From contig CAZWBG010000001.1 of assembly GCA_964632215.1 (NCBI GenBank), positions 1-44,588 of the forward strand: a stretch of 44,588 bases of DNA, written 5' to 3'. Both the position numbers and the translations under genes were made by a program. How positions within the stretch are numbered: position 1 is the stretch's first letter; each line of letters opens with the position of its first letter. Origin of the DNA: an uncultured Candidatus Saccharibacteria bacterium (GTDB lineage: Bacteria > Patescibacteriota > Saccharimonadia > Saccharimonadales > UBA7683). Below are positions 12,250 to 41,869 of the stretch, piece after piece. Below the pieces are notes generated by a model. The model saw only the letters and a program-made list of their open reading frames with translations. It did no database searches and was not told the origin of the DNA.

Positions 12250-14772
12250 TCAGCGTAATGAAACGCTCGTGCTTGAATCTGATGAACCAGTACTCTCTGG
12301 CTTCTTCTTACCACCACGCGTGCCGCGACGGGTCTTCTTTTTAGCAGGTTCACCTGTAGCTGGATTGGTTGGGCGCGGCGTTTGAGGTGCTGTAGCTGGA
12401 GGCTGTGGGGGTAGCGAATTGGCAGCAATTGTGGCTGCAATCTGGGCTTGAGGTACCGAAAAATTCTGGCGTGAATGAGCTATGATTTCCTCCATGTGGC
12501 TACGTGGTGAGGACGGTATGACTAATGTTTTACCGGAGAATGCCTGAGTCTTTTCGCCATCAATAGCCATAGTAGCTAGGAAATGGCGATTATTCTGCTG
12601 CAAGATATCTTGGGACTCAAAATGTGGCTCAAAGTACTTTACGAGTGCACTGCCGTCTTCGGCACCTACTCGGAAGACCACCATACTTCCTACGTTTCCA
12701 AAGACCGCATCTTTCACTTCAGGTGGCATTTGTGAGATGTATTGGTTGGCTACAGTCAGGTTAAGACCGTACTTACGGGCTTCACTTAAGATTACGGCAA
12801 AACTATCAGTTGCAAAGTTCTGAAACTCATCAACGTAAAGATAGAATGGCCGACGCTGACTAAGATGGACGTTGGCGCGGCTCATAGCTGCTAGTTGAAT
12901 CTTGGTGACCATTAGGGCACCCATAATTGCTGCGTTGTCCTCACCCATCAGGCCACGGCTTAGGTTAACGATAAGAATCTTGCCTTCATCCATAATTTGC
13001 CGTACGTTAAACGTACTTTTTGGTTGGCCGATGATGTTTCGGACCATCGGGTTAGCTACGAAGGCACCAACTTTGTTTAGAATTGGAGCAACAGCTTCGG
13101 TGGCAAACTTCTCATTCCAGCTGGCAAACTCAATCGTCCAAAACTGCTTAACAACTATGTCCTGAATATTATCAACAATTTGGCGGCGGAATTTTACATC
13201 GGTGAGCATACGGGTGATATCAAGCATAGTGGTATCTGGTGTATCTAGTAGGGCCAAAATAGTGTAGCGCAAAATATACTCGAGACGTGGACCCCAACTG
13301 TCAAACATACGTTTAAGTACTCCCACTAGCTCTGAGCTGGTGTGGCCCTTCATATTCTGGTCTGCTACTTCCATGGGATTGAAGCCAATTGGGAATTCGG
13401 TATCTGCGGGGTTAAAGTAAACGACATCTTTAATACGATTTTCAGGTATAAAAGCCATAACATCCATAGCGTAATCACCGTGTGGATCAACAACTGCAAA
13501 GCCTTGATCGTGGAAGATATCTGAAAGAGTCAGAAGTGTGAGTAAACCAGATTTACCTGTTCCAGTTTGACCGATAATATACATGTGCCTACCACGGTCA
13601 CCACGTTTAATACCGAATTGAATGTTGCTACCGCGGAAGTTAGTAATACCAAATGGGCTAGTGCCTTCAATAAATTTACCACCCGTAACAGGTAGATTAG
13701 CTGGTGGTTCAGCCGTTTTGGCGTTGGCCCAAACGATATTAGGGGTTTCCACGGTCGTATGTGGTAAGTGGTATACACTCGCAAGCTCTTCAATATTGAA
13801 GACAAAGCCTTTATCTATGAAAAAGCGCGCTCGATATTCGGCTAGTTTAAGTGGATCAAAAGAAGCATTCTTTTGCTTAAAACCGTTCAGATTGGTGGTA
13901 TTAAACTGCTTGAAAGTACCAACCATGGCTTGCATTCGCAGACGAGCTGTTTGTTTATCGGTACCTAGATAGGCCATGCGTATCTTAACTCTGTAGCCGA
14001 GTTTACGACTCTTTTCTTCTATGGCCGTAATACGTGACCGGTCACGCTCACTTACTTCACTACTGCTACCACCAGTTGTGGCTTCGGGAGGTCGCCAAAG
14101 GGCCTCAAAAGCCTGTAGGAGCCAGTTTCCACCACCCTTGCCACCATGACCACCTTTGAGGCGAGACATGTAGCGTGTGCTCTTTTTGTGCCAATTGTCA
14201 TCGACTGGTCGAGCTAGTACCTGAATCCACATCTCTTCCCCTTCTCCCTCGAGTTTGGCTAGTGTGGCTGTAATTGCTGCCAGTGGATCAACCTCAAAAC
14301 TCGGGAAACTCTTAATAGGGAGAGCTTCGTTGTCACTTAGTGTTAACTCGGCAGTATGAATAACCGGCTGAAGATGCTCACGACTAGCATAATCTTCTTG
14401 AGCTACGTGAATCTGTACGGTTGGGTACTGTGCGTAAATCTGACCCTCTACAAAGTTTTGTAGGTGCTCAGGAATCCACACATAAAAGCGTATTTGGTTG
14501 CCAATTGAGGCAATTTCTAGACCGAGATGCTCCTGGGTGCCACCTTCGCGCAGACGTTCGCGCTTGGGTTGTAAAATACCATGTAAGCTGGCAAACATTT
14601 GTTCAGCAGCGAGCTCTTTTTTGTCGTTAGCTCGGGGGATTTCTAAAGTTAGAATAACGTGGCTATGTTCTTTAAGCACTTTTATTTTCTGCCGATTACG
14701 ATAAGTCAGAAAAGCGAGCCCAGCCACTACTGGAATCCATATCCACCACGCACTGAGAAGCGTTCCTAGCAT
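12250..14772 (-). CDS. VirD4/TraD-like (type IV coupling protein/HerA-like) ATPase with N-terminal membrane anchor
   Basis: Walker A GQTGTGKS, DPHGD, Walker B YVDEFQNF, EARKYGL.LTVANQ. Confidence 0.88.
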   Translation of the reverse strand: MLGTLLSAWWIWIPVVAGLAFLTYRNRQKIKVLKEHSHVILTLEIPRANDKKELAAEQMFASLHGILQPKRERLREGGTQEHLGLEIASIGNQIRFYVWIPEHLQNFVEGQIYAQYPTVQIHVAQEDYASREHLQPVIHTAELTLSDNEALPIKSFPSFEVDPLAAITATLAKLEGEGEEMWIQVLARPVDDNWHKKSTRYMSRLKGGHGGKGGGNWLLQAFEALWRPPEATTGGSSSEVSERDRSRITAIEEKSRKLGYRVKIRMAYLGTDKQTARLRMQAMVGTFKQFNTTNLNGFKQKNASFDPLKLAEYRARFFIDKGFVFNIEELASVYHLPHTTVETPNIVWANAKTAEPPANLPVTGGKFIEGTSPFGITNFRGSNIQFGIKRGDRGRHMYIIGQTGTGKSGLLTLLTLSDIFHDQGFAVVDPHGDYAMDVMAFIPENRIKDVVYFNPADTEFPIGFNPMEVADQNMKGHTSSELVGVLKRMFDSWGPRLEYILRYTILALLDTPDTTMLDITRMLTDVKFRRQIVDNIQDIVVKQFWTIEFASWNEKFATEAVAPILNKVGAFVANPMVRNIIGQPKSTFNVRQIMDEGKILIVNLSRGLMGEDNAAIMGALMVTKIQLAAMSRANVHLSQRRPFYLYVDEFQNFATDSFAVILSEARKYGLNLTVANQYISQMPPEVKDAVFGNVGSMVVFRVGAEDGSALVKYFEPHFESQDILQQNNRHFLATMAIDGEKTQAFSGKTLVIPSSPRSHMEEIIAHSRQNFSVPQAQIAATIAANSLPPQPPATAPQTPRPTNPATGEPAKKKTRRGTRGGKKKPESTGSSDSSTSVSLR

Positions 14773-29365: not shown

Positions 29366-29441
29366 GGCCCCGTCGTCTAGTGGTTAGGATATCTGGTTCT
29401 CATCCAGAAGATCGCGGGTTCGAATCCCGCCGGGGTCACCA
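29366..29441 (+). tRNA. tRNA-Glu (anticodon CTC)
   Basis: Acceptor GGCCCCG/CGGGGTC, anticodon arm TCTGG-TTCTCAT-CCAGA, T arm GCGGG-TTCGAAT-CCCGC, encoded CCA. TTGCAT-17-TAACAT promoter at 29314-29342. Confidence 0.97.
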
Positions 29442-30936
29442 AAGAAGACTCATCACGCGTTGGTGAGCCTTTTTGATTTGCAGCCAATCTGTAAAGTGAG
29501 CTCAATTTTGCCGTTCCAAACTGCCTTTTAGCAAGATCATAACTCAGACCTTCTGGAAACACTAGATTTTGGTAAATGATGCGATGCTCAACAGATGCAT
29601 CAAGCCAGATTCGGGGTGCGTTCGACATAAATTGGAGCGCGTAGTCTATTGAGTTGGTTTTGAAATCATTCATAGATCCTACCTCATCAAGTTGTTTACG
29701 CGTTCTTGTTTCTTCTGCATCTAAGTTATTAATCAGCGCTTTCTTTTCATCTGTAGTAATTTGACCGCTCACAAGCATCTCAACAGTCTTATTCTTGCGG
29801 ACTGTGAGACTCTCTAGGGCCTTGTGTAGTTGCTTCTGCTTAGTAGCGAGGGTCTGTGTTTCATCACGCCATACGCGCACGATCATCTCCTTCAGAAACT
29901 TCTCCATACCTGGGTCGGGTTTTAGGGAATTGAGCAACTCAATAAATTGCTTGTGCATCTCATCGGGTTTAATAGACGGCACATGGCATCGCGAGCAATG
30001 GTACCGCGGCGACGGTATTCCTGAGCCATTGCGAGGGCTGCTCCCCGTCATTGGTTTTTCGCAATTAGTGCACAGTAAGAATCTTCGTAAAGGAAATTCT
30101 GGATTGTTCTGTTTATATTTTGCTGTCGAGTTCTTGTTTTTCTTGAGTACGTCCTGGTTACGATAAAAAGTACTAGGGGATATAATTCCACCGAACTTCG
30201 AAGGTAATAGCTGTCCGTCAGTATGTTGGCTTTTTTCTAGGCCCGCATAGATTGGATTTCTCAAAGCCTTACTAATAGCCTGTATTTGCATCTTTTTCCC
30301 TGAAGCTGACTTTAGTCCGATCTCTTCACAAAGCACTACAAGCCCCGCCATTGTGTGAGCCCCCGACGAGTACGCTTCAAGTATCGTAGCCATATTGTCG
30401 GCTATTCCTTCAATTGGCTCAACGGTCGATCTTCCCAGGACGTCTCTGACGTTCCTCAGGCCTAAAGGAGCCTTACTCATTCGATAGCCTTCCTTTGCCT
30501 GGCGTTTCATATTTTCCTTCACGCGTGCGGACTTAAGGCGATTATCATGATTGGCGATTACAGCTTCAAGGCTCTGAACAAGCTCGTCATTCAGATTCTC
30601 ATCTAAGCTTGAGTTTATGTTTTTATACTCGACGCCCGATAGAGACAACCTTGCCCTTAATGCAAAGAAATCAACTGCACTCCGAGTCAGGCGATCCGTT
30701 TGATAGGTGATTAGGTACGAGATTTGATTTCGACTAGCTTCAAGAGCTGACAACATCTCTTTCATTGCAGGTCGTTCTAGTGTTTTTGCCGAAGCACCGT
30801 CGTCATGATAGATCTTTTCCACCAGAACATTATTGCGTGATGCCCATTCTTGACACATAAATTGCTGCGTCTCAAGACTCGCACCATCAACCTGCTTAAG
30901 CGTAGAGACTCGAAGATAGATTACAGCACGTTTCAT
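29377..30936 (-). CDS. Large serine recombinase (integrated-state form, last 19 aa from antisense tRNA)
   Basis: Catalytic YLRVS, DRLTR, GYRMSKAPLG, LRNPIYAG, zinc ribbon C-x2-C...C-x2-C (CTNC, CSRC) and a coiled coil. Confidence 0.92.
   Translation of the reverse strand: MKRAVIYLRVSTLKQVDGASLETQQFMCQEWASRNNVLVEKIYHDDGASAKTLERPAMKEMLSALEASRNQISYLITYQTDRLTRSAVDFFALRARLSLSGVEYKNINSSLDENLNDELVQSLEAVIANHDNRLKSARVKENMKRQAKEGYRMSKAPLGLRNVRDVLGRSTVEPIEGIADNMATILEAYSSGAHTMAGLVVLCEEIGLKSASGKKMQIQAISKALRNPIYAGLEKSQHTDGQLLPSKFGGIISPSTFYRNQDVLKKNKNSTAKYKQNNPEFPLRRFLLCTNCEKPMTGSSPRNGSGIPSPRYHCSRCHVPSIKPDEMHKQFIELLNSLKPDPGMEKFLKEMIVRVWRDETQTLATKQKQLHKALESLTVRKNKTVEMLVSGQITTDEKKALINNLDAEETRTRKQLDEVGSMNDFKTNSIDYALQFMSNAPRIWLDASVEHRIIYQNLVFPEGLSYDLAKRQFGTAKLSSLYRLAANQKGSPTRDESSLVTPAGFEPAIFWMRTRYPNH
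29436..29442 (+). repeat. attL core TCACCAA
   Basis: Identical to 34540-34546 and overlaps the tRNA ACCA terminus. Confidence 0.8.
29447..29474 (+). terminator. Element-supplied terminator for the tRNA, antisense within the recombinase CDS
   Basis: CTCATCA-cgcgt-TGGTGAG stem followed by TTTTT. Confidence 0.6.
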
Positions 30937-31130
30937 GATTCAATATTATCATTGTTTTTGTTGTTTTTGGAACGAATATATTGACGTACACCTATTCTTA
31001 CCACCGTTTCAGTGTCATTTATTAGTTGCAATAACTCTTCGTTGGTAATATCTTTTGCCGATGCACCCAAAAGCTTACGAGCTTCCATTAAAGAAATGAT
31101 TGGTTTTTGTGGAGATAGCGAATTAGCCAA
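30933..31130 (-). CDS. Small helical protein, possible excisionase/directionality factor
   Basis: ISLMEARKLLG resembles a short HTH start. Its stop overlaps the recombinase start (ATGA). Confidence 0.65.
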   Translation of the reverse strand: MANSLSPQKPIISLMEARKLLGASAKDITNEELLQLINDTETVVRIGVRQYIRSKNNKNNDNIES

Positions 31131-31345
31131 AGTGTCATATTGACCCTTCCTGCTTGCTCCCGTCCAGACACCTTCGTCGCGGGGTTATTATCTGTTATTC
31201 AGACAAGCTTTGTGATATTGGCTAAACTACGCTTATATGTTTCTATTATATCACTTTTTCGGTGTTGCTACGCTATAATAAGCAACAAGTCGCTAGTGCG
31301 GCGGTAGCCTAGAGCCACGTATATAACGAAGGTATGGTTATAAAT

Positions 31346-31440
31346 CCACGAAAAGAAACAGCTCGTCATGAGTACCTCTTTTCGTGGTTACTACTGGAAA
31401 CGGTAGTAGGGGCGCAAGCCTCGCTCGTGGCGGGCTTTTT
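31346..31440 (+). promoter_or_regulatory. Structured leader/attenuator-like RNA
   Basis: 11-bp stem 31346-31356/31377-31387 and 13-bp stem 31360-31372/31424-31436 followed by a U-run, plus GAAA- and GCAA-capped hairpins. Confidence 0.55.
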
Positions 31441-31477
31441 AGTTTGTCACGGCCACAAACTAAAAAGAGGAGGGTAC

Positions 31478-31720
31478 ATGGCAAAGAAACCACTATTTTA
31501 CGAGGGTATGACAAACGGAGAACGCTTACGATCGGTAATCTGGGTTATCGTTATTCTCGTAGCGCTTGGAGTTTTTCTATTTGGTGCGTTTTTTCTACCT
31601 CGTTCGTCTGGCAACGATACAAAGCAGGATCCAGGTGAAAGTGACTACGAATATCATCAACGTATTCAAGGTCAGGACGAGGAGCAATATAAAGACTGTG
31701 GCTTTAAGCCAACTTGCTAG
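31478..31720 (+). CDS. Small single-pass membrane protein
   Basis: GAGGAGG RBS before ATG 31478, one TM helix, C-terminal CGFKPTC. Confidence 0.65.
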   Translation: MAKKPLFYEGMTNGERLRSVIWVIVILVALGVFLFGAFFLPRSSGNDTKQDPGESDYEYHQRIQGQDEEQYKDCGFKPTC

Positions 31721-31803
31721 CTCCTCAAGCTATCATTGACATCCGATGATTTTATATGATTGATGTTATAATTATCGAAGATAACCAGTGAGAGATTGGA
31801 GAA

Positions 31804-33162
31804 ATGATGCTGAATATGTCGAATTGGCCAACTGTGACCGAAAAGGTTGTTAACTTGCAGCTCGATGAGTCAAACATACGCATAGATATACAAAACCCAT
31901 CTCAGGACGCGATAATCCAGGATTTATTTGCCAACGAAGGGGCGATGCAAATCGTCGAGAGTGTTCTGAGAAATGGGTTTTTTAACAACGAGCTCCCCGT
32001 CGTATTAAAAAATAGCTCCAAGTATGTAGTGCTGGAAGGCAACAGGCGCGTTGCTGCACTTAAGGCTATTATTAACCCACGACTCGTGCCGACTTTTGAA
32101 GCCAAGATCAACGCACTTATTAACGGACAAGATATTAGTCCGCTAAGAGAGGTAGAGCTAAAAGTTGCTCCTTCTCGCGACGATGCCTCTCGCCTCATTT
32201 CCTCAATTCACACAATTCAATCACGCAAGCCTTGGCGACCTTTAAGACAAGCGTACTTCTACTATGCTCAGCTAGAGAAAGGTAAGCGCAAGATTGAAGA
32301 CTTAATTCTTGAATACCCAAATATAGATATCCCTAGATTCGTAAAGATGTGGGAAATGCATAAAATTGCTCAGTCAATAAAGTATGACGATGCCGACACG
32401 CAGACCGATGTCAGTTCTCGTGGCTTCAAAATCAGTACCTTCGAACGTCTATATCAAAATGATAAGTTTCGTGAAAAATTTGGACTATCTTTCGACAAAT
32501 ACGGCAGGGTGAAGGTTAGCGCCAAAATGAGTGATTTCAAGGACTCCCTGAAACAGGTTGTAACCGATATTGTCACTGGGGAGATTGATTCTCGTAAGAT
32601 CAACAAGGAGTCACAGCTTGATGGCTATTTAGAGAAGTGGAGTTCACCTGATAAAAAAGGTGAGGGGGCGCCGAAAACAAGTGACGACTTTGAACCCGTG
32701 GAGGTACCAAAGAAAGCCTCTACCCCGAAGGCGTTAATACCAAAAAGTGTTCAGACGACGCTGGGAAGCGCAGGAGTTGAGCGTCGGCTCAAAGAGCTAC
32801 AGAAACTCCCATATAGAAACTATCCTAACGCCGCCCACGACCTATTACGCAGTCTTCTCGAGTGCGGATTAAAGGCTTACTGTCAAAAAGAAGGTATTAC
32901 ACTGCAGGCACGACGCCAAGGTGGATATGTATTCCTACACGACGCACTAACGGAGACGAGAAATCATCTGCAATCAAACAACATCCGCAAAGATCTTTTG
33001 CAGGTGATAGACAAGACTGTTAGCAAAGCCGAGAAATTCTCAGTAAAAGACAACCTCGACGCCATAAATCACAATCACAACATCTTCTCTACGGGTGATG
33101 AAGTAAAAGAAGCTTGGGATACCATAAGCGCTTTGGTACAATATGTATTAGATCCTAAATAA
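31804..33162 (+). CDS. ParB/Srx-like N-terminal domain protein with a helical C-terminal domain (possibly HEPN-like)
   Basis: ParB-type motif YVVLEGNRRVAALK after NGFFNNELPVV. C-terminal LLRSLLE...LDAINHN. Confidence 0.7.
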   Translation: MMLNMSNWPTVTEKVVNLQLDESNIRIDIQNPSQDAIIQDLFANEGAMQIVESVLRNGFFNNELPVVLKNSSKYVVLEGNRRVAALKAIINPRLVPTFEAKINALINGQDISPLREVELKVAPSRDDASRLISSIHTIQSRKPWRPLRQAYFYYAQLEKGKRKIEDLILEYPNIDIPRFVKMWEMHKIAQSIKYDDADTQTDVSSRGFKISTFERLYQNDKFREKFGLSFDKYGRVKVSAKMSDFKDSLKQVVTDIVTGEIDSRKINKESQLDGYLEKWSSPDKKGEGAPKTSDDFEPVEVPKKASTPKALIPKSVQTTLGSAGVERRLKELQKLPYRNYPNAAHDLLRSLLECGLKAYCQKEGITLQARRQGGYVFLHDALTETRNHLQSNNIRKDLLQVIDKTVSKAEKFSVKDNLDAINHNHNIFSTGDEVKEAWDTISALVQYVLDPK

Positions 33163-33177
33163 TACAAAAACCAAAAA

Positions 33178-34032
33178 ATGATAACAGCAAAAATACAAAG
33201 AAAGCTTCTATTCACACCGTTGCGCTATCCAGGTGGCAAAACATCTCTTTTCGAGTACTTTGACAAGGTCATCAAAGAGAATAACCTCAAGGATGTATGC
33301 TACATCGAACCCTACGCAGGTGGAGCGGGGGCTGCTTTATCCCTCTTGTTGTTAGAGAAGGTGGACCGACTTGTTATTAACGACTACGATAAGGCCATAT
33401 ACGCTTTCTGGAAGAGTATCCTGGATCAAACGGATGAGTTTGTCGGGTTAGTGCAAAGCACGCCTCTCACTATAGAGGAGTGGAAGAAACAGAAAGCCAT
33501 ATATGCCAACGGCTCTGATGACTTACTAGAGTTAGGTTTTGCGACTTTTTATCTAAATCGAACTAACAGATCTGGAATCCTGACTGGCGGACCGATCGGC
33601 GGAATGGCACAACAGGGCAAATGGTTACTTGATGCACGCTTTAATAAACCAAAACTTATCGAGAGAATTAAGCTCATATCGCTATATCGTGACCGAATCA
33701 CAGTATCGAACACTGATGGACTTGAAGTAATACGCAAATACTCAAAAAATCCCACCTCCTTTTTCTACATAGACCCCCCGTATTACGATAAAGGCCAATG
33801 TCTCTACCTCAACTCCTACAAGCACGAAGACCACGAGAGACTCGCTAAGTTACTGAATAAGCAATCAACAGCAAAGTGGATATTGAGCTACGATAATGTT
33901 CCTCAAATTAAGGAACTCTACAAAACACGCAAAAAGCAGTACGAATTTTCTCTGCACTATCAAGCCCACTCGAGCAAAGAAGGCTCTGAACTTATAGTAT
34001 TCTCTGACAAACTTATAGTTCCCGAGGATTAG
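33178..34032 (+). CDS. Dam/D12-class N6-adenine DNA methyltransferase
   Basis: PLRYPGGK, motif I YIEPYAGGAG, FYLNRTNRSG, catalytic IDPPY. Confidence 0.93.
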   Translation: MITAKIQRKLLFTPLRYPGGKTSLFEYFDKVIKENNLKDVCYIEPYAGGAGAALSLLLLEKVDRLVINDYDKAIYAFWKSILDQTDEFVGLVQSTPLTIEEWKKQKAIYANGSDDLLELGFATFYLNRTNRSGILTGGPIGGMAQQGKWLLDARFNKPKLIERIKLISLYRDRITVSNTDGLEVIRKYSKNPTSFFYIDPPYYDKGQCLYLNSYKHEDHERLAKLLNKQSTAKWILSYDNVPQIKELYKTRKKQYEFSLHYQAHSSKEGSELIVFSDKLIVPED

Positions 34033-34427
34033 TCCAATACACTCTGTATATTAAACTGGATGGCCGCAAGGCGACTCGATCCAAACATCTGGTAATGCTT
34101 CATCATCATATCGATGGCACGCAGTTTATTTTGTGTCGTTTCTGTGCCACCATTAATTATGCTCGTTAATTTAAGTAGCAAAAGGTCGGGCTCCATTGTC
34201 TGCATCTGACCGAGTTTTTCCGATAACCACTTGGGCCGATTATGTGTTAGGTTTCGTGCTGTTTCAGATGTATAACCCGCGCTTAAGGCTGACCTATAGC
34301 AATTGCCGAATGACGGGCTTGTTACGCTAAAGTAGAGCTCAATGAACTTGTCTTGTCGCGGGTCTAGGGTCGAGAGGGTTCCTTTGGGCTCCACCCCCCG
34401 TCCTTCGTGAAATACTTCTATACTCAT
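34029..34427 (-). CDS. Terminase small subunit-like protein
   Basis: LDPRQDKFIELY...GNCYRSALSAGYTSETA matches the TerS N-terminal HTH pattern (L..KQ..F...Y...NA..AA..AGYS..TA). Confidence 0.7.
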   Translation of the reverse strand: MSIEVFHEGRGVEPKGTLSTLDPRQDKFIELYFSVTSPSFGNCYRSALSAGYTSETARNLTHNRPKWLSEKLGQMQTMEPDLLLLKLTSIINGGTETTQNKLRAIDMMMKHYQMFGSSRLAAIQFNIQSVLD

Positions 34428-34540
34428 ACACCCGTTCCTATAACTGCTGGAATGCTTCTAGCTACTGTTGTACTACGGAGTAGGTCATACCATGATTGTA
34501 TCTCTGACAAGATATCGTTCCAATTCGAACGCAGGTAGTT
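34424..34540 (-). other. Stranded 3' end of the recombinase gene (38 codons plus TGA)
   Basis: Reads NYLRSNWNDILSEIQSWYDLLRSTTVARSIPAVIGTGV* in frame with the recombinase when joined through TCACCAA. The stop overlaps the TerS-like ATG. Confidence 0.75.
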
Positions 34541-34546
34541 CACCAA
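34540..34546 (+). repeat. attR core TCACCAA
   Basis: Identical to 29436-29442 and directly followed by a terminator. Confidence 0.8.
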
Positions 34547-34581
34547 CAAAACAGCTCACCACCGGTGGGCTTTTTTGTTGG
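34543..34581 (+). terminator. Probable original tRNA-Glu terminator displaced by integration
   Basis: AGCTCACC-acc-GGTGGGCT stem with TTTTTT, extended by CCAACAAAA/TTTTGTTGG. Confidence 0.75.
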
Positions 34582-34689
34582 TTATTCTCGCAGAGAAGCG
34601 AAGCCGCGCAGCGGGTACGTTCATAAGCAGCTCTCGCAGGAGCTCGCTCCGAGAAAGCTCACAGAAGTAATAATGTCGGGTAAAGTGTA

Positions 34690-36627
34690 CTAGCGATTTG
34701 ATTCGGATACCCTGAAAGCCTGAGCATGACGCAGCCGAACATTCCAACGATCTTCAATTAGTTTACTGGGCTTTATTGGCGCAAGGTGGCTATATGTATC
34801 AATAATGTGCTGGCGGATTGCTGCTACTGTCTCGTAAGGACTATCTGCTTCACTAACGACTGTGTCCACGAGGCCGATTTCATGCTGCGCTTCACTGCTA
34901 GGGCTGAGCGCTAAAATAGTATCAGTACGATTTTGCGGCGTTGCGTTGGCACCGTATACGATAACTGATGCTGCACCAGGTTCGGCAACAGTCATCAGCC
35001 CTTTGCTTAACACTGCCAGCGAGTCACCGCGAGGGGATGTCACTAAACCTCCACCGCTACCCTGTAGACCTGTAATGATACTCATGATTGGCTGGCCATA
35101 GGTGCGGTAGCGCGCCAAGATGTTCGCGATGTCTTCGAACTGGCCTTGAAGTTCTGATTGTAGGGACGGTTCGGCACCAGGGGTGTCAGTTAACAGTATA
35201 AGCGGCAGTTGCAGTCTATCCCCCAGGTTTACCATGCGTAGTAGATACTTAAGATCAGAGGGTTTTGGTGTCGAAAGAATTTTTGAAACCTCTCCGTCGA
35301 CAATCCTGTATGACGGCTGATCGCCTGCTACCATAAAAGACCGCATGCCTATACGGCCAATACCTGCAATAATTGATGGATATATATACTCACCTCGATC
35401 TTTGTCGTAAAAGTGATTATAAAGTGGCACTACGTCTTGGAACGCTTGCTGTAGGACCATTTCGGTATCAGGGCGAGCTACGTCGAATAAAAGATTTCGG
35501 TAGCGATCGGTGAGCATTTGACCTATGGCGGTTTGCTGAGCGTCGGCTTCAGTTTTGCCCGCTGCGAGTTCGGTGGCGTACAGATCCGCTATATTACGCT
35601 CATGGCGTGGTTCCGCAGAAATAGTAATGTGAGCGTCTCTCTGATTATCTTCATATAGCGGTGGTGCGATTATGTTTTGCGAGAAGCGGAAGAATCGCTG
35701 CTCACCATCGGGCCCCACAAGTTGTGTAGGAGGAATAATGCTGCCATCAAATTTTGGGGTTTGTGCACTATCAACACTCAAAAAGCTACCAAGGTACTGG
35801 GTTAATTCACTGGTATTATGTACCAATACGTCGATGTTGCGCTGTAAAGCATGTACCTCTACCCGCTGTGCGCCCTCGGCTACTTCGCGATTTTCTTGAG
35901 CTGCGATAACACGGCCACCTGCAAACCCCATTTGAGTGCCAGTGTACGCAATGCGCAGGTCTGCTCGGGGCATTGAACTAGCAGTCACCCCACCCCAGAC
36001 TTCGCCAAGGAGCACGGCAACATTGGGCACATGAGGGGCTTTTTCTTTTAAGGCTTCGAGAGCTACTACGCCGCGCTCCATCTGGTATAGTGCTCGACCA
36101 TTTTCGTCTTGACGGGCTCCTCCCGATGAATAGATAGTTATGAGTGGACGCTTGGTGGCTTCGGCCAGCTCAATGGCCTGAAGGAGTTTCTCGCCAGCAA
36201 CAGACGAGAGTGAACCACCCATGAAGTCATAATGCATAGCATAGATTACGACATCGTGATCGTCTATTTTGCCAACACCAAACTCTGCGGCTTCGGGCTT
36301 GCCTTTTTCTTCTCGGTTCCTTGAGTGCTTGTCTTTGTAGACTTCAATCTTTTCGCCAATACGCTTAAAGAATGGAATGGTATCAAACTGCGGTATGAGA
36401 TGCGTGCCTCGCGGGTGAAAATCTACCTGTTCAAGGATAGACTCGAGTTCTTTCGGTATTTCTTTACTACTCCACCGTGGTGTGGCTTCAACCAGTTGTT
36501 CGGCAAGTGTTGGTGCGATAACTTGATGTGAAGAATCGAGCTCTTGGGCTAGTATCTGCGCAATATCGTCACAGATGACCTCACCCCCTATAAAGTGGTC
36601 TTCGTTAGTTATTGCTTCTTTGCTCAT
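34690..36627 (-). CDS. Fused acyl-CoA carboxylase carboxyltransferase (AccD-like beta plus AccA-like alpha)
   Basis: Beta motifs FMGGSL..AGEK, SSGGARQDE, GGVTAS, GFAGGRVI. Alpha motifs DTPGA, GSGGG, EPGAASVI. Confidence 0.82.
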   Translation of the reverse strand: MSKEAITNEDHFIGGEVICDDIAQILAQELDSSHQVIAPTLAEQLVEATPRWSSKEIPKELESILEQVDFHPRGTHLIPQFDTIPFFKRIGEKIEVYKDKHSRNREEKGKPEAAEFGVGKIDDHDVVIYAMHYDFMGGSLSSVAGEKLLQAIELAEATKRPLITIYSSGGARQDENGRALYQMERGVVALEALKEKAPHVPNVAVLLGEVWGGVTASSMPRADLRIAYTGTQMGFAGGRVIAAQENREVAEGAQRVEVHALQRNIDVLVHNTSELTQYLGSFLSVDSAQTPKFDGSIIPPTQLVGPDGEQRFFRFSQNIIAPPLYEDNQRDAHITISAEPRHERNIADLYATELAAGKTEADAQQTAIGQMLTDRYRNLLFDVARPDTEMVLQQAFQDVVPLYNHFYDKDRGEYIYPSIIAGIGRIGMRSFMVAGDQPSYRIVDGEVSKILSTPKPSDLKYLLRMVNLGDRLQLPLILLTDTPGAEPSLQSELQGQFEDIANILARYRTYGQPIMSIITGLQGSGGGLVTSPRGDSLAVLSKGLMTVAEPGAASVIVYGANATPQNRTDTILALSPSSEAQHEIGLVDTVVSEADSPYETVAAIRQHIIDTYSHLAPIKPSKLIEDRWNVRLRHAQAFRVSESNR

Positions 36628-36728
36628 AATTTGGCTTAATATACCATTTTCAGCATTTGTTCGCAACTAATGTGACGGCGCGAGAGGTGTTCTAGACTAA
36701 TACTCGTGAGCCCCTTCAAGATTAGTAG

Positions 36729-37964
36729 TTATCCTTCGGAGTTTACGGTGACTGGAGTATCGTGTGGATGTTTGAACTTTCGCACACAACCACAACGAAC
36801 GAGTAACCAGTAACTTATTGCTAGCCCTACTATCATAAACGCAGCCTGCACGAAGTATCCGAGCTTGAGCGAACCACCGGCAATAATAAGGCCGAGCAAG
36901 AACGTGAGAATCATCTTGGCAAACCTGCTCGCCAGCGACATTCCTGAAAGCACGGTGGCACGGATATTGCTCTGCATTTCTTGGTTAGCATAGTCAGACA
37001 CAATTGGCCGCTCCAGGTTGAATACGCCAATAGTGCTAATCACCAGGATGACAATCAGCGGGCTTTGTGTGGCGAGTGCTAGGCCAAAATATCCAATAAT
37101 CGAGAGACTTTTAATTAGCGCAAAGGCCTTCTCGAACGTCAGGTAGTTTTCAATAAGATAGACATATCTCTGCAAGACGAAGTTTATAAACAACCCGGCA
37201 CTAAACGCCGCTCCAACCCAGAAGTTATTAACGCTACTTGCTTCAAAGTGTGGCCCGTAGGTTCCATACAGGAAGTATTCATTACAAATCGTTAGCAGCC
37301 CAATCATGGTGAGCGCAAAGATTGTCTTGTTGTTCTTCATGAGATGAAAAGTTTTTGTAAGTGAGGTGAACATCTTTACTTCTTCCTGAACCACTGACTC
37401 GTGCTTAGATTCTTTGGAGCTATCTTTCAACGTAAGCGCAAAGACCGTAATAAATAGCTGAAGCGCTGCGGTGGCCAGTATGAGTGGTACATAGCTTGCA
37501 GAGTTAAACTCCCCGTATATAACAGCAGTTATAAGGCCTGCTGCAAATAAGCCAGCTATGCCGTTTGAGGTGACAATACTACTTTGCTTTTTATAGTTAA
37601 GTCCTTCTTCTTGCGAGGCCTCAAATAGGAGTGCTTCGTTTGCACCACTGACCATGGCCGTGCCAATGGCTCGGATGATATTCATGGCGTAGAGTCCAAA
37701 AGTGGTTGGTGAGAATACGATAACCAAAAGACCAAGGACGTTTAAGAAGTAACCGAGTGCCATGGAGGTTTTTCGCCCAAACTTATCAGCAATAAAGCCA
37801 GTCGGAATCTCTGAAAGAAAGACTGTGCCCGCGAAGATGCTCTGTGCAATTACAGCATTTGAAAGCGACACTCCTTGCGAGATCGCAAAGAGATTCGTCA
37901 CTATAGTGGCGAAAAACATACCATCAATAAACTCAATGAGTTTTAGTTTTTGTACTGTTTTCAT
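36729..37964 (-). CDS. MFS transporter
   Basis: About 12 TM segments, motif A-like EIPTGFIADKFGRK, SGANEALLFE, RATVLS. Confidence 0.92.
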   Translation of the reverse strand: MKTVQKLKLIEFIDGMFFATIVTNLFAISQGVSLSNAVIAQSIFAGTVFLSEIPTGFIADKFGRKTSMALGYFLNVLGLLVIVFSPTTFGLYAMNIIRAIGTAMVSGANEALLFEASQEEGLNYKKQSSIVTSNGIAGLFAAGLITAVIYGEFNSASYVPLILATAALQLFITVFALTLKDSSKESKHESVVQEEVKMFTSLTKTFHLMKNNKTIFALTMIGLLTICNEYFLYGTYGPHFEASSVNNFWVGAAFSAGLFINFVLQRYVYLIENYLTFEKAFALIKSLSIIGYFGLALATQSPLIVILVISTIGVFNLERPIVSDYANQEMQSNIRATVLSGMSLASRFAKMILTFLLGLIIAGGSLKLGYFVQAAFMIVGLAISYWLLVRCGCVRKFKHPHDTPVTVNSEG

Positions 37965-38043
37965 ACGATTGAGTATATCAGAGAGAAGAGTGTTCGTACC
38001 AAGCACGCCATAAGAAGTGACTATCCCGTCGGAGTCACTAAAT

Positions 38044-38511
38044 TTACGCAAATTGAATGGTATATAAGATCCAGAAAAGGAATATAGTAGCAGCTCCTTC
38101 TATGATTGCTCCCCATGGTCGTTCGCACCACTGGATGTATCGGTGAAATTTTGTGTGTGCAAGCTCCAGAAGACGTGTGGGCTTACGGTGCCACCTCTCG
38201 TAAGCGACATAATAATATATTCCAGCTACATCAGGTGATGCTGCAACGAGGCCAGTGAAAAGCGCAAACCACTGCGCTTGCATAGCTAAGAGTGACACAA
38301 CTATAATTGAGGATATTACAGATAAGGTTGCAACCCAATAGGTAAGTTTGTACTCAAGTGCCTTTCCGTACCCCCTGTTTCCTTTATATCCAAAGTGCGG
38401 TAATGCATCCAGGACAAAGTGAGATGCAAAAGCGAGCGTCGTTGCGGCTACGGGATTCTTAACAGTTAACCCAATTATTGCTCCAACAAGAATGTGGTTT
38501 GTGACAGTCAT
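38044..38511 (-). CDS. Membrane protein, possibly a metal-binding hydrolase-like family
   Basis: NHILVGA, ASHFVLDALPH and SPD pattern among TM segments. Confidence 0.65.
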   Translation of the reverse strand: MTVTNHILVGAIIGLTVKNPVAATTLAFASHFVLDALPHFGYKGNRGYGKALEYKLTYWVATLSVISSIIVVSLLAMQAQWFALFTGLVAASPDVAGIYYYVAYERWHRKPTRLLELAHTKFHRYIQWCERPWGAIIEGAATIFLFWILYTIQFA

Positions 38512-38722
38512 TGGTAGTAGTTTACCACTCCTGTCTCGTGGTGGCATTCGATGTGCGATATGTGAGGTTGCCTTACTTCATTTTTTACACCTACATAGCT
38601 ACTAGGGCATATTATATTTGACAAGATTCGGTCAGGGCGGGTAACATAAACAGTATACACACCACAATAGCTCTAGTAGAAAAATATAAAATTAATATAA
38701 ACTACGGAGCAAAAAATACGAA

Positions 38723-40148
38723 ATGAAGCTAAAACAGTTAGCCAAAAAAATAATGATATTCGCAGTGGCGTTATTCACGTTTGTAGTATTCAATTCGTCA
38801 AAACCAGCTTACGCTGCAAGCTACATCTGGGACGGTGGCGGGGCTACAAGTAACTGGAGCGACTGTGATAACTGGAGTGCAAATATCTGTCCAACTGCTG
38901 CGGACAATGTTATCTTCAATGCAACGAGCGTAAAAGATGCTTCAATTAATACAGGTTTTACAGGTACTATCCTTGGTTTAACAATTGCTAGTGGCTATAC
39001 AGGTTCTATAATGCAGGAGCGAGATCTCATCGCTAACAGTTTTGCCCAAGCAGCTGGAGCATACAACGCTGGAAATCATAACCTTACCATTCGAGCCGGA
39101 TTCTTGACTTCCGGGGGTACTTTTACCGCGCCTAGCGAGACTCTTGATCTTTGGGGTCAGTTTACAATTGGAGCAGCGAACCAATTTATTCATAATAACG
39201 GCACAGTTATTTTTTGGTGGTACAGATAGTTCACGATTCACCGTAACCTGTAATGGAGCAGAGTTCAACCATGTGATACTCAGCTGGGCAAGAAATGTCC
39301 GCGAGACCTGTATTTTACCACTCGGGCACGATCCTATAGTGGGCGTTGGTAATGGCTGGAACTATCACCGTATTTACGGAGAGATCAACGGTACTGGTAA
39401 GCTTAGCGTAGGGATGGGAGAATCAAGTCTAAATCGAGGCTATCAAGTGCTCGATGGCGGCAAGGTAGAGGGTTTTTCGAGTATTGAGACTGGCACGCTA
39501 AGGTATAGTAATGCTGTATTTGACCTCAGCAGTACGCCAACTGTTACTGTGCTCGGGCCACTATTGATACAAAATAACTCCAATCTTACAGCACCCGAAT
39601 CTTTGACAATCAATGGCTTCCTCACAACTGATGCAACCAGTACTTTCACACATAATAACGGCACAGTTGCATTTACAGGCATAGCCAACGCTGTTAATGG
39701 TAATAACACCTTCTATAACCTTACTAAGGTTGCCACTGAGCCAAGTACCCTCACGTTTGCCGCCAACTCAACACAGACTATTTCGGGTAGCTTAACCTTG
39801 CGAGGAGTTAATCAAGATAATTTACTAGCTTTAGTCTCGAGCGTTCCTGGTACGCAGTGGAATATTGATGTCCAGGGGCAACAAAGTTTACGCTATCTTT
39901 CCTTCCAAGACGGTAATAATGTGGGCGCAAATGTCTTGTTGGCTTATGACAGTCAAGATCTTGGTGACAACTCGAACATACAGTTCGCGGCATTTCCGGT
40001 ACCTAATCCTCCAGCAGCAAATGAAAACTCAGCAAATATAAATGGATTGGCAAACACCGGAGTAAACAAAGCTACACTACTCTCAATAAGTGTAGCTAGT
40101 GTTGCTATCGGAGCTATATTCCTTACTTTGCGCAAATACGTCTTCTAA
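38723..40148 (+). pseudogene. Secreted beta-rich surface protein with a LANTG anchor, split by one extra T in a T6 run (39210-39215)
   Basis: ORF1 has a signal peptide and YIWDGGG...NWS...NWS. ORF2 ends LANTG-TM-RK. An 18-nt internal repeat encoding HNNGTV (39191 and 39651) sits in the two different frames. Confidence 0.75.
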
Positions 40149-40270
40149 TTGCAATTAACGAGTCCAAAGCGAGCGCATACTTGTACAAACGAGTCCAAAA
40201 GGATGAAAGTGAAGGCTAAGAGGTAAATTCAGGTCATTAATGTTAACGACTCCTGTAGATCGACATCTGT

Positions 40271-40711
40271 TTAATTGGTAAGGGTGCCGATTTTATATTG
40301 GGCTAGTTGTTGGGTGGCGCTGCTGCTGTGTGGTGTTCCGGAGCCTACCGCTTGCCCATCATTGGTTGTGCGCTCGGTAAATAATGTCGTGCCATCAACT
40401 CCACAGGCCTGCAGTATTCGATCACCTCCTGGGTGACTCCTGATGTAGGAAGTGATGTCATACACGGTGCCGTTGATGATTGTCCAGCAGCTATCTTTGG
40501 TGCTGTGAGTTGCAACTTCAGCACGAGCATAGCTTACTTCTCCACTAGTACTCGTGTCTTCAACTTCGGGTGCTGCCTCAGGTTGAGTAACTGTGGTTGG
40601 CTGTGTGTTTTGCTCAGCGGGTTTATCGATTACGAGTTTCCAAACAGCAAATCCGCCTGCAAGAATGATTGCGATGGTCAGTAAAATAATTGCGAGTTTT
40701 TTGTTACTCAT
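40271..40711 (-). CDS. Membrane-anchored cytochrome b5-like heme-binding protein
   Basis: EVATHSTKDSCWTIINGTVYDITSYIRSHPGG and a second His in PHSSSA. Confidence 0.9.
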   Translation of the reverse strand: MSNKKLAIILLTIAIILAGGFAVWKLVIDKPAEQNTQPTTVTQPEAAPEVEDTSTSGEVSYARAEVATHSTKDSCWTIINGTVYDITSYIRSHPGGDRILQACGVDGTTLFTERTTNDGQAVGSGTPHSSSATQQLAQYKIGTLTN

Positions 40712-40754
40712 GTATACGATTGTAGCATAAGTAATTTAGGGGTAGAATGGGTGT

Positions 40755-41396
40755 ATGAAGCATCTTATGAAGCATCTTATGAAGTGGCTGCCCTGGGGGT
40801 TGTTCGCCTTAGTCGTTGTTGTCTCATTCTTAGGATGGGCGGATCTACGTGATTGGCAATTTGACTCGCTTACTGCTCTTGCTCTCTTTCCGCTCCTTGG
40901 TCTACTAGCCTGGAGTATTATGTGGACACACTATGCAGTTGGTGGAGTGCGCTTGTTCTCGCCTGCTCCAGAGAATAAGTTGTACTCCAAAATTACGTCA
41001 ATCATCGTTTTGGTATGTCTACTGCTTCATCCTGGGCTCCTGGCCTGGAGTCAGTGGGATACTACTGGCATACTTCCGGCAGAAAGTTACTATAACTATG
41101 TCGGTCCTTCGCTTAGAGGGGTGGTTATCTTAGGTAGCGTAAGTCTCGTTATATTCTTAAGCTTCGAAGTGTTTGAACTATTGCGTAAACATCCACTGGT
41201 GAAGCGTAATTGGAAATGGATTAGTCTAAGTCAGATGATTGCTATGATTTTGATCTTTATACATGCTCTGCGACTCGGCCAAAACCTGCAGAGTGGTTGG
41301 TTTCAGTTGTGGTGGATTGCATTAGGAGTCTTACTTGTCCCCTGCTTCGGTTTAATAATCCGCAACGAATGGTCGCAAAAATCCCCTGATAAGTAA
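40755..41396 (+). CDS. Multi-pass membrane protein, ferric reductase-like TM domain
   Basis: About 6 TM helices with intramembrane His residues (WTHY, LLHP, FIHA). Divergent from the b5 gene. Confidence 0.65.
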   Translation: MKHLMKHLMKWLPWGLFALVVVVSFLGWADLRDWQFDSLTALALFPLLGLLAWSIMWTHYAVGGVRLFSPAPENKLYSKITSIIVLVCLLLHPGLLAWSQWDTTGILPAESYYNYVGPSLRGVVILGSVSLVIFLSFEVFELLRKHPLVKRNWKWISLSQMIAMILIFIHALRLGQNLQSGWFQLWWIALGVLLVPCFGLIIRNEWSQKSPDK

Positions 41397-41422
41397 TGAT
41401 TTAATAATCCTATTATGGTAGG

Positions 41423-41821
41423 ATGGGTGATATGAGTTTAGGTCCACCACTTGAAGGTACAAAATTAGCTGGTTTTGATCCCATTGATTCGGTCGATGAG
41501 CTGCAGGTTATTGACGTTGTTGAAGGTACGGGCGATGAGGTAAAGCCTCTGGCTCGAATAACTGCCCACTACACCGGTGCATTGGCGGCTGATGGTACCA
41601 TCTTCCAGAGTTCGCACGATATCTCTCAACCTGCAACATTTGGCTTAGACCAAGTTATAGCGGGCTGGACAGACGGCGTTCCTGGTATGAAGGTTGGCGG
41701 TACACGCCGTTTAATTATTCCAGCAGCTCAAGCCTATGGTGAACGCTCCCCTGCTGCTAATATCCCAGCCAATTCAGATCTTGTTTTTGATATCGAACTG
41801 ATCGAAATCAAGCCTTTTTAG
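41423..41821 (+). CDS. FKBP-type peptidyl-prolyl isomerase
   Basis: HYTGAL..G..FQSS, VIAGWTDGVPGMKVGGTRRLIIP..AYG, IPANSDLVFDIEL. Confidence 0.95.
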   Translation: MGDMSLGPPLEGTKLAGFDPIDSVDELQVIDVVEGTGDEVKPLARITAHYTGALAADGTIFQSSHDISQPATFGLDQVIAGWTDGVPGMKVGGTRRLIIPAAQAYGERSPAANIPANSDLVFDIELIEIKPF

Positions 41822-41869
41822 CCTATCTGCCTAAATAAAATTAATTAAATTAGCCTAGAAGAGGTAAAT

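What the first reader, a model, noticed from the sequence alone, without database searches (positions are those of the whole stretch)
34690..36627. Fused AccD-AccA carboxyltransferase in a lineage thought to lack fatty acid synthesis
Seen: beta and alpha carboxyltransferase motifs in one ~645-aa chain, no N-terminal Cys4 zinc finger, and no biotin carboxylase or BCCP gene in the window. Established: CPR genomes generally lack FAS II. Inference: an acquired enzyme repurposed as a decarboxylase or acyl-CoA modifier, or evidence of unusual lipid metabolism. It sits right beside the element's attR, next to an MFS transporter.
Basis: partly seen in the sequence, partly recalled or inferred. Interest (0 to 1): 0.55.

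Follow-up and report, generated by a model that had tools for sequence, protein, structure and literature searches.

The report
Orphan fused carboxyltransferase in Saccharibacteria
A tiny parasitic bacterium carries a well-preserved, horizontally acquired copy of the carboxyl-transfer half of acetyl-CoA carboxylase, although it has none of the biotin partners or fatty-acid genes that this enzyme normally serves, so the enzyme must do another job, most likely removing CO2 from a malonyl-type thioester.

Summary
Window 34690-36627 (minus strand) encodes a 645-aa protein with an AccD-like half fused to an AccA-like half. It has no Cys4 zinc ribbon, and both glycine-rich catalytic motifs are intact.

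The 0.93-Mb genome (97.75% complete, Saccharibacteria) has no biotin carboxylase, biotinyl domain, BirA, BioY, ketoacyl synthase, FabD, PlsX, AcpS, CoaE, Pta, acyl-CoA synthetase, type III CoA-transferase or MdcA.

The gene is accessory:
- It was not found in 15 genomes of the same family or in 400 sampled genomes of the class.
- It lies in a 12.4-kb variable region at a tRNA-Glu hot spot, about 145 bp outside the serine-integrase element.
- It is shared with two other Saccharibacteria only as the ORF plus its own conserved promoter-like block. The MFS neighbour is not shared.

It belongs to a zinc-ribbon-less clade found mainly in Actinomycetota (Ornithinimicrobiaceae, Acidimicrobiales), with several separate CPR carriers. 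Purifying selection is strong (dN/dS 0.07 in the one pair where dS could be estimated).

Best reading: an acquired carboxyltransferase that works without a biotin carrier protein, probably as a malonyl-thioester decarboxylase. The function is inferred, not shown. The well-kept AccA-like half argues that a second ligand is still bound.

This scan has already noted the same kind of gene on other DNA (e1-3984632).

The parts
34690..36627 (-). Fused AccD-like (residues ~94-289) and AccA-like (~365-629) carboxyltransferase, 645 aa, with a non-zinc N-terminal region (1-93) and a disordered linker (286-309)
36638..36666 (-). Promoter-like block (TTGCGA, 17 nt, TGgTATATT). The ATG follows 10 nt after the -10 element with no Shine-Dalgarno sequence. 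The block is conserved upstream of the orthologues in UBA5170 and UBA5145. Promoter function is inferred.
36729..37964 (-). MFS_1 transporter (411 aa as called on the Logan contigs). It is an upstream neighbour with its own -10-like element and is not shared with the other carriers, so it is probably an incidental neighbour.
34516..34580 (+). Pseudo-tRNA-Glu 3' end (right junction of the serine-integrase element) followed by a terminator hairpin and T-run. This marks the boundary between the element and the carboxyltransferase gene.
   Evidence: note e1-5254890
29366..29441 (+). tRNA-Glu(CTC), anchor of the variable region
29442..41869 (.). 12.4-kb variable region between tRNA-Glu and the RR2 gene. 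Relatives have about 0.66 kb here. It holds the 5.1-kb serine-integrase element plus an older block: carboxyltransferase, MFS, three unknown ORFs, Cyt-b5, a 213-aa ORF and FKBP.

Best explanation
This is a horizontally acquired single-gene cassette (its own promoter-like block plus the ORF). It encodes a zinc-ribbon-less fused AccD-AccA carboxyltransferase that works without biotin carboxylase, BCCP or biotin ligase and does not feed fatty-acid synthesis.

Shown here:
- The architecture and the intact catalytic motifs.
- The absence of all ACC, FAS II and Mdc partners that were searched for.
- Accessory status, transfer as a single gene, purifying selection, and membership of a clade shared by Actinomycetota and CPR.

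Inferred: the enzyme binds a malonyl- or methylmalonyl-type thioester in the AccD-like half. It stabilises the enolate with the SGGAR glycine amides and releases CO2, so that malonyl-CoA gives acetyl-CoA. It would do this either directly or through a free, non-protein-bound acceptor held in the still-conserved AccA-like site. The thioester would come from the cell's scavenged acyl-CoA pool.
For: Architecture and motifs.

Nearest solved relatives are AccD (2e-44) and AccA (6e-39). The AF2 model shows two crotonase-like halves.

Partner families searched and not found. In this genome only: accC (the only weak hit is Ddl), BirA family (22), ketoacyl synthase, PlsX, FabD, AMP-binding. Biotin_lipoyl is absent here and in four other Saccharibacteria carriers. 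Absent here and in those four carriers: CoaE, type III CoA-transferase, Pta, AcpS, BioY, MdcA. Control genomes were positive in each search.

Acquired: 0 of 15 family genomes and 0 of 400 class genomes. Variable region at tRNA-Glu. Only the ORF is shared with UBA5170 and UBA5145, at 71-72% nt, together with a conserved promoter-like block. Carboxyltransferase identity is discordant with TopA identity. CPR copies are not one clade.

Maintained: dN 0.07-0.17 with saturated dS; omega 0.07 in the UBA5170/UBA5145 pair, the only pair where dS could be estimated for the whole gene.

An acyl-CoA pool is plausible: five or six GNAT-type genes (six matches in five reading frames).

Precedent: MdcD-MdcE decarboxylates malonyl-CoA in vitro without biotin (PMC5534430). 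Mycobacterial AccD3 binds no BC/BCCP partner and is dispensable for lipid synthesis (PMC4347857, PMC5311964).
Against: - No activity was measured and no substrate is indicated by a conserved neighbour.
- The AccA-like half, which in ACC binds carboxybiotin, is the most constrained part (omega 0.03 in the UBA5170/UBA5145 pair, GSGGG invariant). In the truly biotin-independent MdcE this half has diverged (PMC5534430). A second ligand is therefore probably still bound, which a plain one-substrate decarboxylase would not need.
- Saccharibacteria are reported to lack acetyl-CoA metabolism (PMC6031116), and no source of malonyl-CoA is encoded.
Confidence: 0.4

Rival explanations
1. It is a true two-substrate carboxyl transferase whose AccA-like site binds a non-BCCP partner. 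That partner could be free biotin or biocytin scavenged from the host, or another ureido or enolisable acceptor. The enzyme would then move CO2 between an acyl-CoA and that molecule, as a transcarboxylase does, rather than simply releasing it.
For: The AccA-like half is the most conserved part and scores much better against AccA than against MdcE (107 vs 31 bits; 6e-39; omega 0.03). GSGGG is invariant in 30 family members. MdcE lost AccA-likeness once biotin was no longer bound (PMC5534430).
Against: No BioY, BirA or biotinyl protein in five carriers. No candidate second substrate emerges from the gene neighbourhoods. The alpha half could instead be conserved for folding or for forming the dimer interface.
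Confidence: 0.22
2. It is a host-directed enzyme. It would act on the actinobacterial host's malonyl-CoA or biotinylated carrier during epibiotic contact, or be delivered into the host, to alter host lipid metabolism. This would resemble an auxiliary metabolic gene of a phage.
For: The family's main reservoir is Actinomycetota, the phylum that holds the hosts of the cultured Saccharibacteria (the host link is from PMC10768705). The epibiont itself has no use for malonyl-CoA. Saccharibacteria alter host lipid storage (PMC10939385, abstract only).
Against: There is no signal peptide or recognisable secretion tag in the N-terminus. No secretion genes are linked to it. The idea is purely inferential.
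Confidence: 0.1
3. It is a functionless passenger: a recently transferred gene that is decaying or non-catalytic.
For: It is rare and patchy and sits in an island of unrelated cargo. Its subclade has changed 40 of 161 family-conserved columns and sits on a long stem.
Against: The frame is intact in all carriers. dS is saturated with dN of only 0.07-0.17 across three genomes whose TopA identity to this genome is 59-78%. All catalytic motifs are kept, and the promoter-like block is conserved.
Confidence: 0.06
4. It is an ordinary acetyl-CoA carboxylase subunit whose partners lie in unassembled parts of the genome.
For: The assembly has 15 contigs and is 97.75% complete, so it is not closed.
Against: BC, BCCP, BirA and FAS II were all sought in this genome and none was found. 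The biotinyl domain is also absent in four other carriers. The gene is absent from 415 related genomes. The lineage is known to lack FAS (PMC6031116).
Confidence: 0.02

Closest known systems
Carboxyltransferase of heteromeric bacterial acetyl-CoA carboxylase (AccD beta + AccA alpha; e.g. E. coli 2F9Y, S. aureus 2F9I)
   Same: Both crotonase-like halves are present, in the order beta then alpha. These are the best sequence matches among solved structures (2e-44 and 6e-39). The SGGAR and GSGG glycine motifs are conserved.
   Different: It is a single chain with no Cys4 zinc ribbon. Its scores are about a third of the equivalog cut-offs. The genome has no BC, BCCP, BirA or FAS II.
Zinc-ribbon-bearing fused AccD-AccA proteins of actinomycetes and Chloroflexota (e.g. 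Nonomuraea, Sphaerisporangium; P0013, P0017)
   Same: The same beta-alpha fusion order, at 26-30% identity.
   Different: They carry zf-ACC (PF17848) and form a separate clade, divided from this family by a branch of 1.1-1.4 substitutions per site.
Mycobacterial AccD3 (orphan carboxyltransferase)
   Same: It is a carboxyltransferase homologue that binds no BC/BCCP partner and is dispensable for fatty and mycolic acid synthesis, and its function is unknown (PMC4347857, PMC5311964). This is the same 'partnerless carboxyltransferase' situation. Earlier notes of this scan (e1-4320256, e1-2651489) link that family to type III CoA-transferases.
   Different: A sequence relationship to this clade was not tested here, because no AccD3 sequence was at hand. 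The Saccharibacteria carriers have no type III CoA-transferase.
Biotin-independent malonate decarboxylase MdcD-MdcE (Pseudomonas, 5VIP)
   Same: It is a carboxyltransferase-fold beta/alpha pair that decarboxylates a malonyl thioester without biotin, and it accepts malonyl-CoA in vitro (PMC5534430).
   Different: Similarity is much weaker (MdcD 4e-12; 47 and 31 bits against cut-offs of 278 and 237). MdcA was sought and not found; the other Mdc partners (the MdcC carrier and its prosthetic-group genes) were not searched for. Here the alpha-like half remains AccA-like.

Membership tests
Carboxyl_trans / ACCA superfamily (crotonase-fold carboxyltransferases) | Pfam PF01039 and PF03255 matched above their gathering scores | tested here: met
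   81.8 bits (cut-off 22.3) and 98.5 bits (cut-off 23); fold confirmed
Acetyl-CoA carboxylase carboxyltransferase (AccD/AccA equivalogs) | Score above the NCBIfam equivalog cut-offs for accD and accA | tested here: not met
   125 vs 317 bits; 88-107 vs 300-357 bits
Acetyl-CoA carboxylase carboxyltransferase (AccD/AccA equivalogs) | Catalytic glycine motifs of both halves (SGGAR in beta; GSGG in alpha) | tested here: met
   G170, R172, Q173 and G523-G527 are invariant in 30 family members
Acetyl-CoA carboxylase carboxyltransferase (AccD/AccA equivalogs) | N-terminal Cys4 zinc ribbon of bacterial AccD | tested here: not met
   No PF17848 hit; one Cys in residues 1-110
Acetyl-CoA carboxylase carboxyltransferase (AccD/AccA equivalogs) | Biotin carboxylase, BCCP and biotin ligase encoded in the genome | tested here: not met
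   for this genome; Biotin_lipoyl is also absent in four other carriers; controls were positive in 14 of 14
Acetyl-CoA carboxylase carboxyltransferase (AccD/AccA equivalogs) | A malonyl-CoA consumer (FAS II: KAS, FabD) in the genome | tested here: not met
   an orphan ACP is present but there is no AcpS
Biotin-independent malonate decarboxylase MdcD-MdcE | Score above the malonate_beta and malonate_gamma cut-offs | tested here: not met
   47 vs 278 bits and 31 vs 237 bits
Biotin-independent malonate decarboxylase MdcD-MdcE | MdcA transferase in the genome | tested here: not met
   PF16957 absent in five carriers
Biotin-independent malonate decarboxylase MdcD-MdcE | MdcC carrier protein and its prosthetic-group genes in the genome | not tested
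   No search was made for MdcC or the other Mdc accessory genes
Mycobacterial AccD3 family | Sequence membership (orthology to Rv0904c / MSMEG_5642) | not tested
CoA-transferase + fused carboxyltransferase pair (candidate malonate-to-acetyl-CoA module; notes e1-4320256, e1-2651489) | A type III CoA-transferase adjacent or elsewhere in the genome | tested here: not met
   PF02515 absent in five Saccharibacteria carriers. It is adjacent, in convergent orientation, in 9 Acidimicrobiales loci.

The most novel reading that the evidence does not exclude
This zinc-ribbon-less AccD-AccA clade would be a carboxyl-transfer enzyme that needs no protein-bound biotin. Saccharibacteria and other CPR would have captured it repeatedly from their actinobacterial hosts as a self-promoted single-gene cassette, and would use it on host-derived malonyl thioesters. 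Its role would be either to regenerate acetyl-CoA in cells with no encoded acetyl-CoA source, or to interfere with host lipid synthesis.
Probability: 0.15. Interest if true: 0.8.

Novelty: new variant of a known kind. Interest (0 to 1): 0.5.

Why it matters
Carboxyltransferases of the AccD/AccA type are textbook biotin-dependent enzymes. Here a conserved, selected copy exists in at least five Saccharibacteria genomes that encode no biotinyl domain; biotin ligase and biotin carboxylase were sought, and not found, only in this genome. None of the five shows an evident route to acetyl-CoA (no Pta or CoaE; acyl-CoA synthetase was checked only in this genome), and this genome lacks the fatty-acid synthesis genes sought. 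That combination forces a non-canonical activity.

The case also gives a clean natural test for the unexplained partnerless carboxyltransferases of Actinomycetota, the AccD3-type orphans. Cultured carriers such as Ornithinimicrobium pekingense DSM 21552 make the question experimentally tractable.

It further documents gene flow between Actinomycetota and CPR, and movement of a single promoter-plus-gene unit among Saccharibacteria.

Tried and rejected
- Conserved neighbours as a guide to function. ORFs from 81 loci were clustered and neighbours scanned with Pfam. No universal partner emerged. Neighbours included ABC-2 exporter plus FUR, a sigma/anti-sigma pair, a type III CoA-transferase (9 loci, convergent), a DSD1-like PLP enzyme (11 loci), GrpB, ArsP with metal genes, MMPL, PEMT and PAP2. 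My ORF caller is crude for high-GC DNA.
- MFS plus carboxyltransferase as an operon or co-transferred pair: rejected. The MFS gene is not shared and each gene has its own -10-like element.
- The carboxyltransferase as cargo of the serine-integrase element: rejected. The junction and terminator lie between them.
- Long direct repeats as att sites: none found.
- The weak accC hit turned out to be D-Ala-D-Ala ligase.
- Free-biotin uptake via BioY: not found.
- Foldseek whole-chain superpositions gave low TM-scores (about 0.3) because the domain arrangement differs from single-chain acyl-CoA carboxylase beta subunits. They confirm the fold only.
- Literature searches for CPR together with carboxyltransferase returned nothing.
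- The root and the direction of transfer could not be resolved; the backbone is a polytomy.

Full report
**Observation**

The minus-strand ORF at 34690-36627 encodes 645 aa from an ATG. A longer TTG start at 36666 lies inside the promoter-like block, and the N-termini of the homologues do not support it.

Pfam finds Carboxyl_trans at residues 116-249 and ACCA at 365-629. NCBIfam finds accD at 94-289 (125 bits) and AccA at 384-627 (107 bits). Both are far below the equivalog cut-offs, so this is a divergent member.

There is no zf-ACC hit and only one cysteine in the first 110 residues. The motifs SSGGARQ, DTPGAEP and GSGGGL are present and are invariant or nearly so across 30 family members.

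An AlphaFold model (pLDDT 79.7) shows two crotonase-like halves joined by a disordered linker at 286-309. Foldseek returns only acyl-CoA carboxylase beta subunits and transcarboxylase 12S. Among solved structures, a profile of the family matches AccD best (2e-44), then AccA (6e-39). MdcD reaches only 4e-12.

**Genome background**

The window is the start of contig 1 of a 929-kb, 15-contig genome that is 97.75% complete. Its TopA is 78% identical to that of "Candidatus Saccharibacteria bacterium UBA5170". All family relatives have genomes of 0.7-1.1 Mb. Earlier notes of this scan also call it Saccharibacteria.

Six-frame HMM searches, with positive controls, found:
- No biotin carboxylase. The only weak hit is D-Ala-D-Ala ligase.
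- No biotinyl/lipoyl domain.
- No second carboxyltransferase.
- No ketoacyl synthase, BirA-family ligase, PlsX, FabD or AMP-binding synthetase.
- No CoaE, type III CoA-transferase, Pta, AcpS, BioY or MdcA.

One acyl carrier protein is present, and so are five or six GNAT-type acetyltransferase genes (six matches in five reading frames). Four other Saccharibacteria that carry a homologue also lack biotinyl domains, CoaE, CoA-transferase, Pta, AcpS, BioY and MdcA.

Published work states that Saccharibacteria lack fatty-acid synthesis and acetyl-CoA metabolism (PMC6031116).

**The gene is accessory and mobile**

It was not found in 15 other genomes of the family or in 400 sampled genomes of the class.

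In relatives the gene order is DUF3048, HK2, RR2, about 0.66 kb, tRNA-Glu(CTC), HK. In the window, RR2 and tRNA-Glu are 12.4 kb apart. That interval holds two things:
- A 5.1-kb serine-integrase element. Its right junction, a pseudo-tRNA 3' end at 34516-34546 plus a terminator, lies about 145 bp from the carboxyltransferase stop codon.
- An older block of unrelated genes: the carboxyltransferase, MFS, three unknown ORFs, Cyt-b5, a 213-aa ORF and FKBP.

The gene is therefore beside the integrase element, not inside it.

A DNA search of the older block against other carriers matched only the carboxyltransferase ORF (71-72% nt identity). One further match was to FKBP at an unrelated locus.

Upstream of the ORF, a promoter-like block (TTGC-AAC, then TGnTAyATT, ending 10-15 nt before the ATG, with no Shine-Dalgarno sequence) is conserved in all three genomes. 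The downstream flanks are unrelated. The unit that moves is therefore the promoter plus the gene. The MFS gene is an incidental neighbour.

**Family and phylogeny**

A scan of 185,579 species genomes found the family in the following groups:
- Four Saccharibacteria (UBA5170 at 75%, UBA5145 at 76%, UBA1944 at 35%, and one further MAG at 37%).
- Two Levyibacteriota and one "Patescibacteria" MAG.
- Dozens of Actinomycetota, at 34-38% identity: Ornithinimicrobium and Serinicoccus, including cultured strains, and many Acidimicrobiales.

Trees (quick with 96 rows, careful with 38 rows) separate this zinc-ribbon-less family from the zinc-ribbon-bearing fused AccD-AccA proteins by a long branch. They place UBA1944 and the Patescibacteria MAG with Ornithinimicrobiaceae at 100/100 support. 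The CPR copies form one clade in 0 of 200 bootstrap trees. The backbone is unresolved, so the direction of transfer is open.

Carboxyltransferase identity is discordant with organism relatedness:

| Carrier | TopA identity to this genome | Carboxyltransferase identity |
|---|---|---|
| UBA5145 | about 60% | 76% |
| UBA1944 | 73% | 35% |

**Selection**

Among the three close Saccharibacteria copies, dS is saturated and dN is 0.07-0.17. In the UBA5170/UBA5145 pair, the only pair where dS could be estimated for the whole gene, omega is 0.07 overall and 0.03 for the AccA-like half.

The subclade has changed 40 of 161 family-conserved columns. None of these touches the glycine motifs, and several changes return to the canonical AccD/AccA residue, the latter judged from memory of the canonical motifs.

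**Mechanism**

The shown facts exclude a role in a canonical ACC or in fatty-acid synthesis. They also exclude the Mdc system and the pairing with a type III CoA-transferase in these carriers.

The best-supported reading is a carboxyltransferase that acts on a malonyl-type thioester without a protein-bound biotin, with net decarboxylation. There are two precedents. MdcD-MdcE shows biotin-free decarboxylation of malonyl-CoA in vitro (PMC5534430). Mycobacterial AccD3 has no partner (PMC4347857, PMC5311964).

One caution stands out. In MdcE the alpha-like half diverged once biotin was no longer bound (PMC5534430). Here the alpha-like half is the best conserved part. A second ligand may therefore still occupy that site: free biotin, biocytin or something else.

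Gene neighbourhoods give no consistent clue. I give the decarboxylase reading about 0.4 and the two-substrate variant about 0.2. The host-directed, passenger and hidden-ACC readings score lower.

**Prior notes of this scan**

The same kind of orphan fused carboxyltransferase was already reported on other DNA, with the same conclusion (e1-3984632). My searches of five carriers agree with that note independently.

Note e1-5254890 defines the integrase element. I confirmed its right junction and the hot spot.

Notes e1-4320256 and e1-2651489 propose a CoA-transferase partnership in Actinomycetota. I found such a neighbour in 9 Acidimicrobiales loci but none in the Saccharibacteria carriers.

**Verdict**

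This is a new variant of a known enzyme kind. Interest is moderate.

Noticed in passing
window 29366-41869; L089, L090, L094: The 3' flank of tRNA-Glu(CTC) is an integration hot spot in this family. One relative (G005) carries a different serine integrase at the same tRNA. Another (G009) carries a short match to the integrase C-terminus overlapping its tRNA-Glu gene. Others have only about 0.66 kb between the tRNA and RR2.
   Followed up: partly
G000 C3:15146-15346 (L008:1477-1767, -): An acyl carrier protein gene scores above the NCBIfam subfamily cut-off, yet the genome shows no AcpS/Sfp, FabD, ketoacyl synthase, PlsX or acyl-ACP synthetase. It sits beside polA. How it would be phosphopantetheinylated, and what it does, are unexplained.
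   Followed up: partly
window 40271-40711 (-): A cytochrome b5-like haem/steroid-binding domain protein (146 aa) lies in the same variable block as the carboxyltransferase. This is an unexpected domain for a fermentative ultra-small bacterium.
   Followed up: no
L009:7830-8000, L010:7794-7964, window 36628-36700 (-): A conserved block of about 70 nt (CTAGAAC ... TTGCnAAC ... TGnTAyATT) precedes the carboxyltransferase ATG in three Saccharibacteria that share no other flanking sequence. It looks like a promoter for a near-leaderless mRNA travelling with the gene.
   Followed up: partly
L010:6830-14226: In UBA5145 the carboxyltransferase sits among metal-handling genes: an ArsP-type permease, an HMA-DsbD-like protein and an HMA P-type ATPase. 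This is another accessory-island context.
   Followed up: no
L021:9682-11789 and 8 other Acidimicrobiales loci; L020, L064 and 9 others: Two neighbours recur in Actinomycetota. One is a convergent type III CoA-transferase with an alpha/beta hydrolase. The other is a divergent Ala_racemase_N + D-ser_dehydrat (DSD1-like, PLP) enzyme, seen in both Ornithinimicrobiaceae and Acidimicrobiaceae.
   Followed up: partly
window 12250-14772 (-): An 840-aa VirD4/TrwB-like coupling-protein ATPase lies next to an M13 peptidase and a sigma70_r4/HARE-HTH protein, in the part of the window to the left of the variable region.
   Followed up: no
L009:3422-3496: In UBA5170 a tRNA-Asn gene lies 4.5 kb upstream of the carboxyltransferase, with GrpB and unknown ORFs in between. 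This may be another tRNA-anchored island.
   Followed up: no
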